Positions 14,170-15,995 of a DNA stretch of 64,000 nucleotides are shown piece by piece. Numbering within the stretch: the stretch's first letter is position 1; the number at the start of each line of letters is the position of its first letter. The position numbers were made by a program, and so were the translations under genes. Origin of the DNA: Escherichia phage EC6; sequence record JX560968; one strand, 5' to 3'. The notes below the pieces were generated by a model, which saw only the letters and a list, made by a program, of their open reading frames with translations, was not told where the DNA came from and did no database searches.

Positions 14170-14247
14170 GGGAGATTGACGGTAATTGGTAAACCTATCT
14201 CGCTTAGAACGAGATGTTTGAGGGTTCGAATCCCTTGTCTCCTACCA
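14170..14247 (+). tRNA. tRNA with anticodon TAG (Leu-type anticodon) on a class-I-length scaffold
   Basis: Acceptor GGGAGAT/GTCTCCT, anticodon stem TCTCG/CGAGA with loop CTTAGAA, 5-nt variable loop, T-arm GAGGG-TTCGAAT-CCCTT, CCA encoded. Confidence 0.45.
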
Positions 14248-14254
14248 AGTTAAT

Positions 14255-14330
14255 GCAGGTGTAGCAAAATGGTTATGCGGCTGACTCTTAATCAGTAAGA
14301 CGATGGGTTCAATTCCCTCCACCTGTACCA
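14255..14330 (+). tRNA. tRNA-Lys (anticodon CTT)
   Basis: Acceptor GCAGGTG/CACCTGT, anticodon stem GCTGA/TCAGT with loop CTCTTAA, T-loop TTCAATT, CCA encoded; paralogous in layout to tRNA-Lys(TTT). Confidence 0.55.
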
Positions 14331-14335
14331 AAAAT

Positions 14336-14411
14336 GGGGTCATAGTTTATATGGTTAAAATTCGAGTTTTGCAAACTTGGGAACTGAGTTCAATTCTCAG
14401 TGACTCCACCA
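14336..14411 (+). tRNA. tRNA-Ala (anticodon TGC)
   Basis: Acceptor GGGGTCA/TGACTCC with a G3-U70 wobble pair (the Ala identity element), anticodon loop TTTGCAA, T-arm CTGAG-TTCAATT-CTCAG, CCA encoded. Confidence 0.6.
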
Positions 14412-14417
14412 ATTAGT

Positions 14418-14492
14418 GCATCCATAGTTTAAACGGGAAAATTACAGTCTTCCAAACTGAGGTTGAGGGTTCGATTCCCTCTGGATGCTCCA
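14418..14492 (+). tRNA. tRNA-Gly (anticodon TCC)
   Basis: Acceptor GCATCCA/TGGATGC, anticodon loop CTTCCAA, T-arm GAGGG-TTCGATT-CCCTC, CCA encoded. Confidence 0.55.
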
Positions 14493-14499
14493 AATTAAT

Positions 14500-14576
14500 G
14501 CTGCTTTCGTATAATTGGCTATTACACATCCCTTGTAAGGATGGAAATGCAGGTTCGAGTCCTGTGAGCAGCACCA
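14500..14576 (+). tRNA. tRNA-Thr (anticodon TGT)
   Basis: Acceptor GCTGCTT/GAGCAGC, anticodon stem CATCC/GGATG with loop CTTGTAA, T-arm GCAGG-TTCGAGT-CCTGT, CCA encoded. Confidence 0.6.
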
Positions 14577-14671
14577 ATTCAGAGGTCAAGTGAAAGACCG
14601 CTGGTGTCAACTGAAGACCGTAACAAATTCCACGGAGTTGAGTTAGCGGCACAACTTCAGACCTCTTTCAC

Positions 14672-14746
14672 ACTCGCTTAGTTTATATGGTAAAGCCCCA
14701 TCCTTACAAGTTGGTGAAAAAGGTTCAAGTCCTTTAGTGAGTACCA
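14672..14746 (+). tRNA. tRNA-Val (anticodon TAC)
   Basis: Acceptor ACTCGCT/AGTGAGT, anticodon loop CTTACAA, T-arm AAAGG-TTCAAGT-CCTTT, CCA encoded. Confidence 0.55.
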
Positions 14747-14747
14747 T

Positions 14748-14825
14748 GTTCCAGTATCCCAATTGGCAGAGGATGCAAGCTCAAACCTTGTACTAGTGAC
14801 GGTTCGAATCCGTCTTGGAACACCA
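14748..14825 (+). tRNA. tRNA with anticodon CAA (Leu-type anticodon) on a class-I-length scaffold
   Basis: Acceptor GTTCCAG/TTGGAAC, anticodon stem GCAAG/CTTGT with loop CTCAAAC, 6-nt variable loop, T-arm GACGG-TTCGAAT-CCGTC, CCA encoded. Confidence 0.45.
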
Positions 14826-14938
14826 ATTTTAGGAGAGCACTATGAGTGATAAGTCCATCGCAAAAAAGTTTAGAGCGTCATATCTAAACAGACGTAAAAA
14901 CAAAGTTTGTGAAAAACTGTATGGTGTTCTCGTAGGTA

Positions 14939-15014
14939 AGCAGGATTAGTTCAAATGGATAGAGCAACAGTCTACGAAGCTGTTAATAGGGGTTCGAATC
15001 CCTTATCCTGCGCC
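14939..15014 (+). tRNA. tRNA-Arg (anticodon ACG)
   Basis: Acceptor GCAGGAT/ATCCTGC, anticodon stem ACAGT/GCTGT with loop CTACGAA, T-loop TTCGAAT, CCA encoded. Confidence 0.6.
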
Positions 15015-15033
15015 AGATAAGCAAGAGGAATTT

Positions 15034-15276
15034 ATGCAAACATTAATCGTCGTTGCACATGAAAACCCCAATAGTATTGAGTTTGTAAGGGTTCCCACTA
15101 TAGATACCCACATTTTCTTGAAAGTCGGATGGGAATGCGACCCAATAAAAGTAGGGAAATTTCTTGGTCATTACTTTGGTGGAAGACAATTTAAAAGTAT
15201 CAATTTTGAGACAGTGTTACCAGAAAACTCAGAAACAGATAATAATACTTACCTCCTTACGAGGATTAGACAATGA
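15034..15276 (+). CDS. hypothetical protein (80 aa) embedded in tRNA cluster
   Basis: ORF between tRNA-Arg and the membrane-protein gene. Confidence 0.35.
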   Translation: MQTLIVVAHENPNSIEFVRVPTIDTHIFLKVGWECDPIKVGKFLGHYFGGRQFKSINFETVLPENSETDNNTYLLTRIRQ

Positions 15277-15830
15277 GATACTTAAAATATGCTTCATGGA
15301 TTTTCCTAGCTTTACTAGAACCATTTGCAGCAGCCCTAGCAGTCATCTTAGCACCTTTCGTAGTTCCATTCTACAGTGAGAAGAAAGGACATCTACCTTT
15401 TGGATTCAGATGGATGGAGACCTATGACAACCCGATTGATGGTGATGAAGGTCACGTTAAAAGATGGGCTAAGATTAGAAAGATTGGTAAGCTTAGTGTC
15501 TATTTGCAGAGAGTTGGATGGCTCTGGAGAAACAAAGCTTATAACTTCTCTTACCATGTGTTAGGAAGAGATGTAAAAGATGTTACTAAGTGGAAAGGTA
15601 ATATCAACGTAAGTTCTGACCCTGAAGATAATCAGACAGGTTATCTCCTAATGTGGAACAGTAATGCTTGGGGATTATTCGCTTTTATCCCATCAATTAA
15701 AGTCTTTGGTAAACAATTCTACTGGAGAATTTATGTTGGATGGAAGCTAAAAAGTGTTGTCCCAGAAGAAAGAGCATTCTCAAGGGAAAGAGTTATGTTG
15801 GCATTCTTTATTCATCCACTGAGAAAGTAA
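15273..15830 (+). CDS. predicted membrane protein (185 aa) embedded in tRNA cluster
   Basis: Hydrophobic N-terminus (IFLALLEPFAAALAVILAPFVVPF) and a second hydrophobic stretch; start overlaps the upstream stop. Confidence 0.45.
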   Translation: MRYLKYASWIFLALLEPFAAALAVILAPFVVPFYSEKKGHLPFGFRWMETYDNPIDGDEGHVKRWAKIRKIGKLSVYLQRVGWLWRNKAYNFSYHVLGRDVKDVTKWKGNINVSSDPEDNQTGYLLMWNSNAWGLFAFIPSIKVFGKQFYWRIYVGWKLKSVVPEERAFSRERVMLAFFIHPLRK

Positions 15831-15838
15831 AGATTTAA

Positions 15839-15914
15839 AGGGGATTAGTTTACAAGGTTAAAACCTCGGTCTTTGAAATCGAAGAAGTTGGTTCAATTCC
15901 AACATCCCCCGCCA
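15839..15914 (+). tRNA. tRNA-Gln (anticodon TTG)
   Basis: Acceptor AGGGGAT/ATCCCCC with unpaired 1-72, D-stem GTTT/AAAC, anticodon loop CTTTGAA, T-arm GTTGG-TTCAATT-CCAAC, CCA encoded. Confidence 0.55.
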
Positions 15915-15916
15915 AT

Positions 15917-15995
15917 GCTCCATTACTCCAATTGGCAGAGAGGCCAGACTTAAAATCTGTGTTATGTATCGGTTCGAATCCGATATGGAGTACCA
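15917..15995 (+). tRNA. tRNA with anticodon TAA (Leu-type anticodon) on a class-I-length scaffold
   Basis: Acceptor GCTCCAT/ATGGAGT, anticodon loop CTTAAAA, 6-nt variable loop, perfect T-arm ATCGG-TTCGAAT-CCGAT, CCA encoded. Confidence 0.45.

What the first reader, a model, noticed from the sequence alone, without database searches (positions are those of the whole stretch)
14170..15995. Three tRNAs with Leu-type anticodons (TAG, CAA, TAA) but class-I length and short variable loops
The genes at 14170-14247, 14748-14825 and 15917-15995 have good acceptor and T arms and encoded CCA, and anticodon loops CTTAGAA, CTCAAAC and CTTAAAA. Each is only 78-79 nt with a 5-6-nt variable loop, and each is tightly flanked by other tRNAs so cannot be extended. 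Bacterial tRNA-Leu is normally class II with a long variable arm. No other Leu tRNA was found, so these may be the Leu isoacceptors with a non-canonical scaffold, or tRNAs with unexpected identity. All three carry A73.
Basis: inference. Interest (0 to 1): 0.45.

Follow-up and report, generated by a model that had tools for sequence, protein, structure and literature searches.

The report
Phage leucine tRNAs lacking the long arm
The three genes are real leucine tRNAs of a Felix O1-like phage that have lost the long extra arm bacterial leucine tRNAs carry, a design that turns out to be common in phages and rare in bacteria, and whose charging by the host enzyme has not been tested.

Summary
ARAGORN and Rfam call three tRNAs with Leu anticodons: UAG at 14170-14247, CAA at 14748-14825 and UAA at 15917-15995. 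They are 78, 78 and 79 nt, with variable loops of 5, 6 and 7 nt, A73 and an encoded CCA. No long-arm tRNA-Leu occurs in the window, while tRNA-Ser and tRNA-Tyr in the same cluster keep long arms.

The window is a Felixounavirus. Identical genes are already annotated as tRNA-Leu in many of the 260-310 matching GenBank phage records.

Apart from the missing arm, the tRNA bodies are leucine-type. They have a 3-bp D stem, the D-loop AAUUGG(C/U)A(G/A)A as in E. coli tRNA-Leu, U48 and A73. These are the reported E. coli LeuRS identity elements. A published scan of a related phage ranks Leu as the top isotype.

The scaffold is not peculiar to this phage. About 39% of Leu-tRNA loci sampled in viral contigs are short-armed, against 3% in bacterial genomes.

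Most likely they are ordinary leucine decoders charged by host LeuRS, serving an AT-rich phage. Charging is inferred, not shown, and published statements conflict on whether E. coli LeuRS accepts arm-less tRNA-Leu. Interest is moderate: the genes are known, but the pattern is little discussed.

The parts
14170..14247 (+). tRNA-Leu(UAG), 78 nt. Variable loop UGUUU (5 nt), A73, CCA, G1.U72, anticodon loop CUUAGAA with A37. The D arm is irregular, with one extra nucleotide.
   Evidence: ARAGORN; Rfam tRNA 44.5 bits; segment parse. It is 100% identical to annotated tRNA-Leu in GenBank Felixounavirus records. A second allele differs only in the anticodon stem, at three pairs by compensatory changes.
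14748..14825 (+). tRNA-Leu(CAA), 78 nt. Variable loop ACUAGU (6 nt), A73, CCA, G1-C72, 3-bp D stem and D-loop C-AAUUGGCAGA.
   Evidence: ARAGORN; Rfam 43.6 bits; parse and comparison with E. coli leuX. 254 phage records cover at least 80% of it.
15917..15995 (+). tRNA-Leu(UAA), 79 nt. Variable loop GUUAUGU (7 nt), A73, CCA, G1.U72, a C27.U43 mismatch, 3-bp D stem and D-loop C-AAUUGGCAGA.
   Evidence: ARAGORN; Rfam 47.5 bits; parse. 214 phage records are at least 99% identical.
11934..17190 (+). The tRNA gene cluster holding the three Leu genes: 25 tRNAs, all on the + strand. In a close relative it lies between a lysozyme/early-gene block and terminase-portal-capsid.
   Evidence: annotation of phiWec172.
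12428..12515 (+). tRNA-Tyr(GUA), 88 nt. An internal control that keeps the long variable arm.
13827..13916 (+). tRNA-Ser(UGA), 90 nt. An internal control that keeps the long variable arm.
17018..17110 (+). tRNA-Ser(GCU), 93 nt. An internal control that keeps the long variable arm.

Best explanation
The three genes are functional leucine tRNAs of a Felix O1-like phage (isoacceptors UAG, CAA and UAA). Their architecture is a hybrid: the D arm is that of a bacterial class II tRNA-Leu, and the variable region is the short loop of a class I tRNA.

They are most likely transcribed with the tRNA cluster upstream of the late genes, processed by host enzymes and charged with leucine by the host LeuRS. 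In E. coli that enzyme is reported to read A73 and the D/T-loop elbow (A15-U48, G18G19, A20a), not the anticodon, and not necessarily the long arm.

Together the three anticodons can read the Leu codons an AT-rich phage uses heavily and that the host serves with minor tRNAs.

The arm can be lost in Leu but not in Ser or Tyr, because bacterial SerRS and TyrRS depend on it.

Shown here: gene presence, fold, leucine-type body, conservation and compensatory changes, and wide occurrence in phages. Inferred: expression, leucylation by host LeuRS, and the reason the arm was lost.
For: 1. All three are confidently called as tRNAs with Leu anticodons.

2. Outside the variable region, Leu(CAA) and Leu(UAA) match the architecture of E. 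coli leuX and leuZ. The stretch from position 8 to 26 is the same length (20 nt). The D stem has 3 bp with positions 13 and 22 unpaired. The D-loop is AAUUGGCAGA against AAUCGGUAGA in leuX/leuZ and AAUUGGUAGA in leuW. U48 and A73 are present.

3. Of the 25 tRNAs in the window, only these three combine the strict Leu-type D-loop with A73.

4. These are the reported E. coli leucine identity elements. E. coli tRNA-Leu variants lacking the long arm are reported to stay active (Giege & Eriani 2023, PMC9976931).

5. tRNAscan-SE isotype models rank Leu first for the counterparts in phage Sf14: 67.4, 49.1 and 60.2 bits (PMC12482277).

6. The genes are conserved in 260-310 phage records. The two Leu(UAG) alleles differ at 8 positions, all in the anticodon stem. 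Three of those pairs change in a compensatory way.

7. They belong to a coherent class. In viral contigs, 148 distinct short-arm Leu tRNAs show 4-6 pair types at almost every stem position and 91-100% pairing. U48 is present in 97% of those with 5-nt loops. Across all 164 short-arm copies found, A73 is present in 93%.

8. In the same phages tRNA-Ser and tRNA-Tyr keep long arms.

9. The window is 39% G+C. Among Leu codons it uses TTA 27%, CTT 27%, CTG 15%, TTG 13% and CTA 12%. The Sf14 study scores all three Leu tRNAs as consistent with codon-usage compensation.
Against: No experiment on charging or expression of a short-arm phage tRNA-Leu was found.

A 2019 study states that E. coli LeuRS charges only type II tRNA-Leu, and that it failed on the Streptomyces coelicolor type I tRNA-Leu(CAA) (PMC6614811).

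A 2025 structural paper reports salt bridges between the long arm and the C-terminal domain of E. coli LeuRS (PMC12360207). The arm may therefore contribute to charging efficiency.

Phage T5 itself has a class II tRNA-Leu, so classical T5 biochemistry does not cover the short form.

Leu(UAG) has an irregular D arm and A37 instead of G37. The minimum-energy fold of Leu(UAA) alone is not a cloverleaf.

A sequence profile built from bacterial class II Leu bodies did not separate Leu(UAG) and Leu(CAA) from other isotypes.
Confidence: 0.8

Rival explanations
1. Same identity (leucine), but the arm loss is an adaptation rather than a tolerated deletion. A tRNA-Leu without the long arm would escape nucleases, host-encoded or phage-encoded, that recognise or cut the long arm of class II tRNAs. 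It could also no longer be mis-serylated. The phage would then keep decoding Leu codons while host tRNA-Leu is attacked.
For: - Short-arm Leu tRNAs are strongly enriched in viral contigs: 47 of 120 loci against 4 of 120 in bacterial genomes with the same pattern, Fisher p = 2e-12.
- With the variable region excluded, short forms are each other's nearest relatives (148 of 173 same-class nearest neighbours against 89 expected). Within one genus, T5 and poul124 carry different types at the same place in the cluster. Both fit spread by gene replacement.
- Precedents exist for arm-directed or class-II-selective tRNases. Mycobacterium tuberculosis VapC52 cuts the variable loop of tRNA-Ser(GGA) and contributes to phage defence (PMC13273310). 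Human SLFN11 targets type II tRNAs. Bacterial Schlafens are anti-phage tRNases (PMC13056530).
- From memory and not verified here: T4 infection cleaves a host tRNA-Leu in its extra arm (Yudelevich 1971).
- The Leu(UAG) alleles differ only in the anticodon stem, which hints at selection on nuclease-exposed parts.
Against: - No nuclease specific for the arm of tRNA-Leu is known in enterobacteria.
- Ser and Tyr tRNAs of the same phages keep their arms, which is explained more simply by synthetase requirements.
- Many phage tRNA clusters carry long-arm Leu tRNAs: 134 long against 164 short in the pooled sample, and 33 loci carry both.
- Chromosomal short-arm Leu tRNAs exist in Actinomycetes among ordinary genes.
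- The viral sample includes prophage edges and the sampling is shallow.
Confidence: 0.2
2. The tRNAs carry Leu anticodons but are charged with another amino acid, or are used for something other than standard decoding.
For: - Class I length is atypical for bacterial tRNA-Leu.
- For the Sf14 Leu_TAG counterpart the isotype scores are close: Leu 67.4, Ile2 65.7, Lys 63.4.
- E. coli LeuRS reportedly fails on one foreign type I tRNA-Leu.
Against: - Leu is the top isotype for all three counterparts.
- The Leu-type D-loop plus A73 is found only in these three of the 25 tRNAs.
- Host tRNA-Leu reads the same codons, so a different identity would give ambiguous decoding of about 50% of the phage's Leu codons (TTA, TTG, CTA). 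That is hard to reconcile with strong conservation across hundreds of phages.
Confidence: 0.04
3. They are decaying or non-functional tRNA genes: pseudogenes left by deletion of the arm.
For: - The minimum-energy fold of Leu(UAA) alone is not a cloverleaf, and the z-scores of the three folds are weak (-1.4 to -1.6).
- Leu(UAG) has an irregular D arm.
- A degenerate tRNA-like element sits in the same cluster at 13505-13588.
Against: - Near-perfect conservation across 260-310 records.
- Compensatory substitutions in the anticodon stem.
- Class-wide compensatory variation in all four stems.
- They are the only Leu tRNAs in a phage that otherwise carries a near-complete set.
- Rfam scores are well above threshold.
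Confidence: 0.03

Closest known systems
Bacterial class II tRNA-Leu (E. coli leuW UAG, leuX CAA, leuZ UAA; 85-87 nt)
   Same: Same three anticodons. A73 and U8 are present. The D stem has 3 bp with positions 13 and 22 unpaired. The D-loop has the same length and nearly the same sequence, with A14, A15, G18G19 and A20a. U48 and a standard T loop are present.
   Different: The variable region is 5-7 nt instead of 13-15 nt with a stem. The stems are AT-richer. Position 32 is C instead of U. Leu(UAG) has A37 instead of G37. Two of the three have G1.U72. No blastn match was found in 5,426 E. coli genomes for Leu(CAA) or Leu(UAA); Leu(UAG) was not searched.
Short-arm tRNA-Leu genes of other phages: T5-like Tequintavirus 'poul124', Kolesnikvirus phiEa104 and phi63_307, Acinetobacter P1, Aeromonas Akh-2, Mycobacterium prophiGD54-2, Lactobacillus LpeD
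   Same: Length of 74-78 nt, variable loop of 5-6 nt, the Leu-type D-loop and A73. Ser and Tyr in the same clusters keep long arms. Identity to the window genes is 76-84%.
   Different: The anticodon sets differ; Kolesnikvirus, for example, has AAG instead of UAG. The stems differ. Only Acinetobacter P1 shares the extra D-arm nucleotide of Leu(UAG).
Type I tRNA-Leu(CAA) of Streptomyces coelicolor and human mitochondrial tRNA-Leu (PMC6614811; PMC9976931)
   Same: Leucine tRNAs with a short variable loop. [quoted passage not shown]
   Different: Those systems have a LeuRS shown to accept type I. Here the enzyme would be the enterobacterial LeuRS, which that paper reports as specific for type II. 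Sequence relatedness to the S. coelicolor gene could not be tested. Chromosomal short-arm Leu tRNAs in my bacterial sample came mostly from Actinomycetes.
Class II tRNA-Leu of phages T4 (87 nt) and T5 (85 nt)
   Same: Phage-encoded Leu tRNAs located in tRNA clusters. The T5 gene is annotated as convertible to an amber suppressor.
   Different: They keep the long variable arm. The T5 gene and the short poul124 gene occupy the same place next to tRNA-Ala but have different stems, so this is gene replacement rather than a simple deletion.

Membership tests
tRNA (Rfam RF00005) | Cloverleaf scoring above the family's gathering score | tested here: met
   43.6-47.5 bits against a gathering score of 29. 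ARAGORN draws cloverleaves for all three.
Bacterial tRNA-Leu as substrate of E. coli-type LeuRS | Leu anticodon (NAG or YAA) | tested here: met
   UAG, CAA and UAA, each in a 7-nt loop.
Bacterial tRNA-Leu as substrate of E. coli-type LeuRS | Discriminator A73 | tested here: met
   All three have A73. The determinant is as listed in PMC9976931.
Bacterial tRNA-Leu as substrate of E. coli-type LeuRS | Elbow elements: U8-A14, A15-U48, G18G19, A20a, and a T loop with U54, U55, C56 and A58 | tested here: met
   The sequence positions are present in all three: D-loop AAUUGG(C/U)A(G/A)A, U48 as the last variable nucleotide, and T loop UUCGAAU. For Leu(UAG) the register is uncertain because of one extra nucleotide. 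The tertiary pairs themselves are inferred from sequence.
Bacterial tRNA-Leu as substrate of E. coli-type LeuRS | Long variable arm (class II architecture) | tested here: not met
   Variable regions are 5, 6 and 7 nt, against 13-15 nt in leuW, leuX and leuZ.
Bacterial tRNA-Leu as substrate of E. coli-type LeuRS | Leucylation by the host LeuRS | not testable with these tools
   Published statements conflict. The arm is called dispensable in PMC9976931. E. coli LeuRS is called type II only in PMC6614811. Arm-enzyme contacts are reported in PMC12360207.
Type I (short-variable-loop) tRNA-Leu | Leu anticodon combined with a short (4-5 nt class) variable loop and no extra stem | tested here: met
   Loops of 5-7 nt with no stem. 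The viral class is bimodal, with a mode of 5 nt against 11-25 nt for long arms.
Phage short-arm tRNA-Leu class (defined here from viral contigs) | Class consensus: 3-bp D stem, positions 13 and 22 unpaired, D-loop AAyUGGCAgA, U48, A73 | tested here: met
   Leu(CAA) and Leu(UAA) fit fully. Leu(UAG) fits except for the extra D-arm nucleotide.
tRNA pseudogene | Loss of constraint: broken stems and poor conservation | tested here: not met
   Conserved in 260-310 records. The alleles differ by compensatory changes.

The most novel reading that the evidence does not exclude
[quoted passage not shown] Many phages carry arm-less leucine tRNAs because some host or competitor nuclease selects class II tRNAs through that arm, and the arm-less copies keep Leu decoding alive during infection. 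A corollary is that enterobacterial LeuRS must charge type I tRNA-Leu efficiently, contrary to a published statement.
Probability: 0.15. Interest if true: 0.7.

Novelty: new member of a known kind. Interest (0 to 1): 0.35.

Why it matters
For this window the result is mostly reassurance: the three genes are ordinary annotated phage tRNA-Leu genes, not misassigned tRNAs.

The wider pattern is more useful. About two in five Leu-tRNA loci sampled from viral contigs lack the long arm, against about one in thirty in bacterial genomes, while Ser and Tyr keep theirs. I found no paper in the searchable library that describes this.

It bears on two things.
- It is a natural experiment on which synthetases need the class II arm. 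[quoted passage not shown] A 2019 paper reported that situation as a first for Streptomyces coelicolor and described E. coli LeuRS as restricted to type II.
- It gives a simple handle for asking whether any tRNA-targeting defence uses the long arm.

Both can be tested with standard aminoacylation assays and tRNA sequencing.

Tried and rejected
1. blastn of Leu(CAA) and Leu(UAA) against 5,426 E. coli genomes gave no match even at E = 10. This was useless for isotype assignment, though it shows the genes are not resident in E. coli prophages.

2. An HMM of 78 bacterial class II tRNA-Leu bodies, with the anticodon masked and the arm removed, was scored on all 25 window tRNAs. Leu(UAA) came first, but Leu(UAG) and Leu(CAA) fell mid-table, because the conserved T arm and stem composition dominate. 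I treated this as inconclusive and replaced it with the D-loop plus A73 feature test.

3. Single-sequence minimum-energy folding gave weak z-scores and a non-cloverleaf fold for Leu(UAA). This is usual for AT-rich tRNAs and I gave it no weight.

4. I assumed classical T5 biochemistry would show E. coli LeuRS charging a short-arm tRNA-Leu. On checking, T5 itself has an 85-nt class II tRNA-Leu, so I dropped the argument.

5. I expected the few bacterial short-arm Leu genes to lie in prophages. Pfam scans of their neighbours found only ordinary chromosomal genes.

6. Ten literature searches found no description of short-arm phage tRNA-Leu. Older subscription papers are not searchable, and two papers I asked for by id were not held.

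I used a wide-gap pattern instead.
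Full report
**What is there.** ARAGORN finds 25 tRNA genes on the + strand between 11934 and 17190. Three have leucine anticodons:
- UAG at 14170-14247 (78 nt)
- CAA at 14748-14825 (78 nt)
- UAA at 15917-15995 (79 nt)

All three have A73 and an encoded CCA. Variable regions are 5, 6 and 7 nt, with no extra stem. Rfam's tRNA model scores them 43.6-47.5 bits against a threshold of 29. No other tRNA-Leu is found in the 64 kb, and a relaxed-threshold ARAGORN run over the cluster (11801-17300) adds none. 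In the same cluster tRNA-Tyr (88 nt) and both tRNA-Ser (90 and 93 nt) keep long arms.

**Where the window comes from.** The tRNA region is 92-96% identical to dozens of Felixounavirus genomes, the Felix O1-like phages of Escherichia, Salmonella and Shigella. Each Leu gene has identical or near-identical copies in 260-310 GenBank phage records, mostly annotated "tRNA-Leu". In the close relative phiWec172 the cluster lies between a lysozyme/early block on the opposite strand and terminase, portal and capsid genes on the same strand.

**Are they leucine tRNAs?** Outside the variable region, Leu(CAA) and Leu(UAA) match the architecture of E. coli leuX and leuZ, which I fetched for comparison.
- The stretch from position 8 to 26 is the same length (20 nt).
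- The D stem has 3 bp, with positions 13 and 22 unpaired.
- The D-loop is AAUUGGCAGA, against AAUCGGUAGA in leuX and leuZ and AAUUGGUAGA in leuW.
- U48 closes the variable loop, and A73 is present.

According to the Giege & Eriani review, E. coli leucine identity rests on A73, the A15-U48 pair, G18G19, A20a and the D/T-loop tertiary pairs. It does not rest on the anticodon, and variants lacking the long arm remain active (PMC9976931). Among the 25 tRNAs of the window, only these three combine the strict Leu-type D-loop with A73.

In Shigella phage Sf14, which has the same gene order, tRNAscan-SE isotype models rank Leu first for Leu_TAG (67.4), Leu_CAA (49.1) and Leu_TAA (60.2). That paper never mentions the variable loop (PMC12482277).

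Leu(UAG) is the least regular of the three. It has one extra nucleotide in the D arm, so only 2-3 D-stem pairs form, and it has A37 where E. coli has G37.

**Are they under selection?** Yes. The two common Felixounavirus alleles of Leu(UAG) differ at eight positions. All eight lie in the anticodon stem, as three fully compensatory pair changes plus one C-G to U.U change.

**The scaffold is widespread in phages.** Distant BLAST hits led to several unrelated groups with 74-78-nt Leu tRNAs and long Ser and Tyr: T5-like Tequintavirus "poul124", Erwinia/Cronobacter Kolesnikvirus, an Acinetobacter Saclayvirus, Aeromonas Akh-2, a Mycobacterium prophage and Lactobacillus LpeD.

I then scanned IMG/VR with a pattern running from the Leu-type D-loop to the T loop. 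The gap was set to accept either arm length. Of the first 120 loci, 47 had the short form and 73 the long. The same pattern in one-genome-per-species bacterial contigs gave 4 short and 116 long. Fisher's exact test gives p = 2e-12.

ARAGORN on the viral loci shows a bimodal distribution: 164 Leu tRNAs with 4-8-nt variable regions (mode 5) and 134 with 11-25 nt.

The short class is coherent. Across the 164 copies, 93% have A73 and 95% have the D-loop motif. Among 148 distinct sequences, U48 is present in 97% of those with 5-nt loops. The D stem has 3 bp, positions 13 and 22 almost never pair (2%), and nearly every stem position shows 4-6 pair types.

With the variable region removed, short forms are each other's nearest relatives far more often than chance: 148 of 173 same-class nearest neighbours against 89 expected.

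T5 itself carries an 85-nt class II tRNA-Leu(UAG), and T4 an 87-nt one. The T5 gene and the short poul124 gene sit next to tRNA-Ala in the same place but have different stems, which points to gene replacement rather than a simple deletion.

The four bacterial short-arm loci are three Actinomycetes and one Planctomycetota MAG. They lie among ordinary chromosomal genes. This fits the one published bacterial case, S. coelicolor (PMC6614811).

**How it most likely works.** The three tRNAs decode Leu codons for an AT-rich phage. The window is 39% G+C. Among Leu codons, TTA is 27%, CTT 27%, CTG 15%, TTG 13%, CTA 12% and CTC 6%. The Sf14 study scores all three as consistent with codon-usage compensation.

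Charging by the host LeuRS is inferred from the preserved identity elements and from the absence of any other plausible route. That only Leu loses the arm fits established knowledge that bacterial SerRS and TyrRS use the long arm while LeuRS identity does not require it.

**What argues for caution.** I found no experiment on a short-arm phage tRNA-Leu.
- The S. coelicolor paper states that E. coli LeuRS charges only type II tRNA-Leu and failed on their type I substrate.
- A 2025 structural paper describes salt bridges between the arm and the E. coli LeuRS C-terminal domain.

So efficiency, at least, is an open question.

**Rival readings.** An adaptive version of the same explanation is that the arm was lost to escape arm-directed or class-II-selective nucleases, or to avoid mis-serylation. 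The viral enrichment is compatible with it. So are the precedents: VapC52 cutting a tRNA-Ser variable loop, SLFN11 selecting type II tRNAs and bacterial Schlafen tRNases in phage defence. Nothing here tests it, and many phages keep long-arm Leu tRNAs. A different amino-acid identity, or pseudogene status, is unlikely given the body features, the conservation and the ambiguous decoding it would cause.

**Verdict.** This is a real feature, correctly described. It is best read as ordinary phage leucine tRNAs on a hybrid scaffold, with a class II D arm and a class I variable loop. The genes are already annotated in public records and the scaffold type is known from mitochondria and Streptomyces. 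The strong phage enrichment, and the implied coexistence of both types with a single enterobacterial LeuRS, appear not to have been discussed in the literature I could search.

Noticed in passing
window 13505-13588 (+): A tRNA-like element with a 7-bp acceptor stem, a T arm, A73 and CCA. Its anticodon stem-loop GCUGU-CUUCUAA-ACAGC is identical to that of tRNA-Arg(UCU) in Kolesnikvirus phages. It has only 7 nt where the D arm should be and about 22 nt in the variable region. ARAGORN does not call it, and Rfam gives only a weak tRNA-Sec hit. Sf14 has a canonical Arg_TCT at this place in the cluster. It may be a degenerate or rearranged tRNA-Arg.
   Followed up: partly
window 13729-13824 (+): A structured element with a 10-bp terminal stem and a T-arm-like hairpin (fold z = -2.4). 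ARAGORN at 80% threshold calls a low-confidence 'tRNA-Pyl(cta)' at 13717-13788. The T5 record annotates comparable 'tRNA-like stable RNAs with unknown functions' inside its own tRNA cluster (L327).
   Followed up: partly
window 14577-14671 (+): A 95-nt spacer between tRNA-Thr and tRNA-Val that folds into one long hairpin (-30.7 kcal/mol, z = -2.96). Its function is unknown.
   Followed up: no
window 14170-14247 compared with L204:2501-2578 (Salmonella phage Mushroom): Leu(UAG) exists as two common alleles in Felixounavirus. They differ only in the anticodon stem, at 8 positions: three compensatory pairs plus one U.U. The alternative stem, CCAUC/GUUGG, resembles that of the T5-like Leu(UAG), including the U30.U40 mismatch. 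This looks like a swap or selection confined to the anticodon stem.
   Followed up: partly
window 14170-14247 and 15917-15995; viral loci L007-L199: A G1.U72 wobble closes the acceptor stem of Leu(UAG) and Leu(UAA). In viral contigs, 43% of short-arm Leu tRNAs have G1.U72 against 21% of long-arm ones. This is unexplained.
   Followed up: no
window 14203-14209 (anticodon loop of Leu(UAG)): The loop is CUUAGAA, with A37. E. coli leuW has UUUAGGU, with G37. The phage tRNA therefore lacks the G36-G37 site for TrmD m1G37. T5-like, Acinetobacter and Mycobacterium phage Leu(UAG) genes also have A37.
   Followed up: no
L266:3550-3912 (Planctomycetota MAG); L222, L252, L312 (Actinomycetes): Chromosomal short-arm Leu tRNAs occur in bacteria. 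One locus has three in tandem (CAG, UAA, GAG) followed by a 100-nt tRNA-Tyr, all among ordinary genes such as glutamate synthase, a sigma factor and a subtilase. No phage genes were detected nearby.
   Followed up: partly
L327:3625-3709 (T5) compared with L001:7997-8073 (T5-like poul124): Within the genus Tequintavirus, the tRNA-Leu(UAG) next to tRNA-Ala is class II (85 nt) in T5 and short-armed (77 nt) in poul124. The stems are unrelated, so this is a natural gene replacement that could be exploited experimentally.
   Followed up: partly
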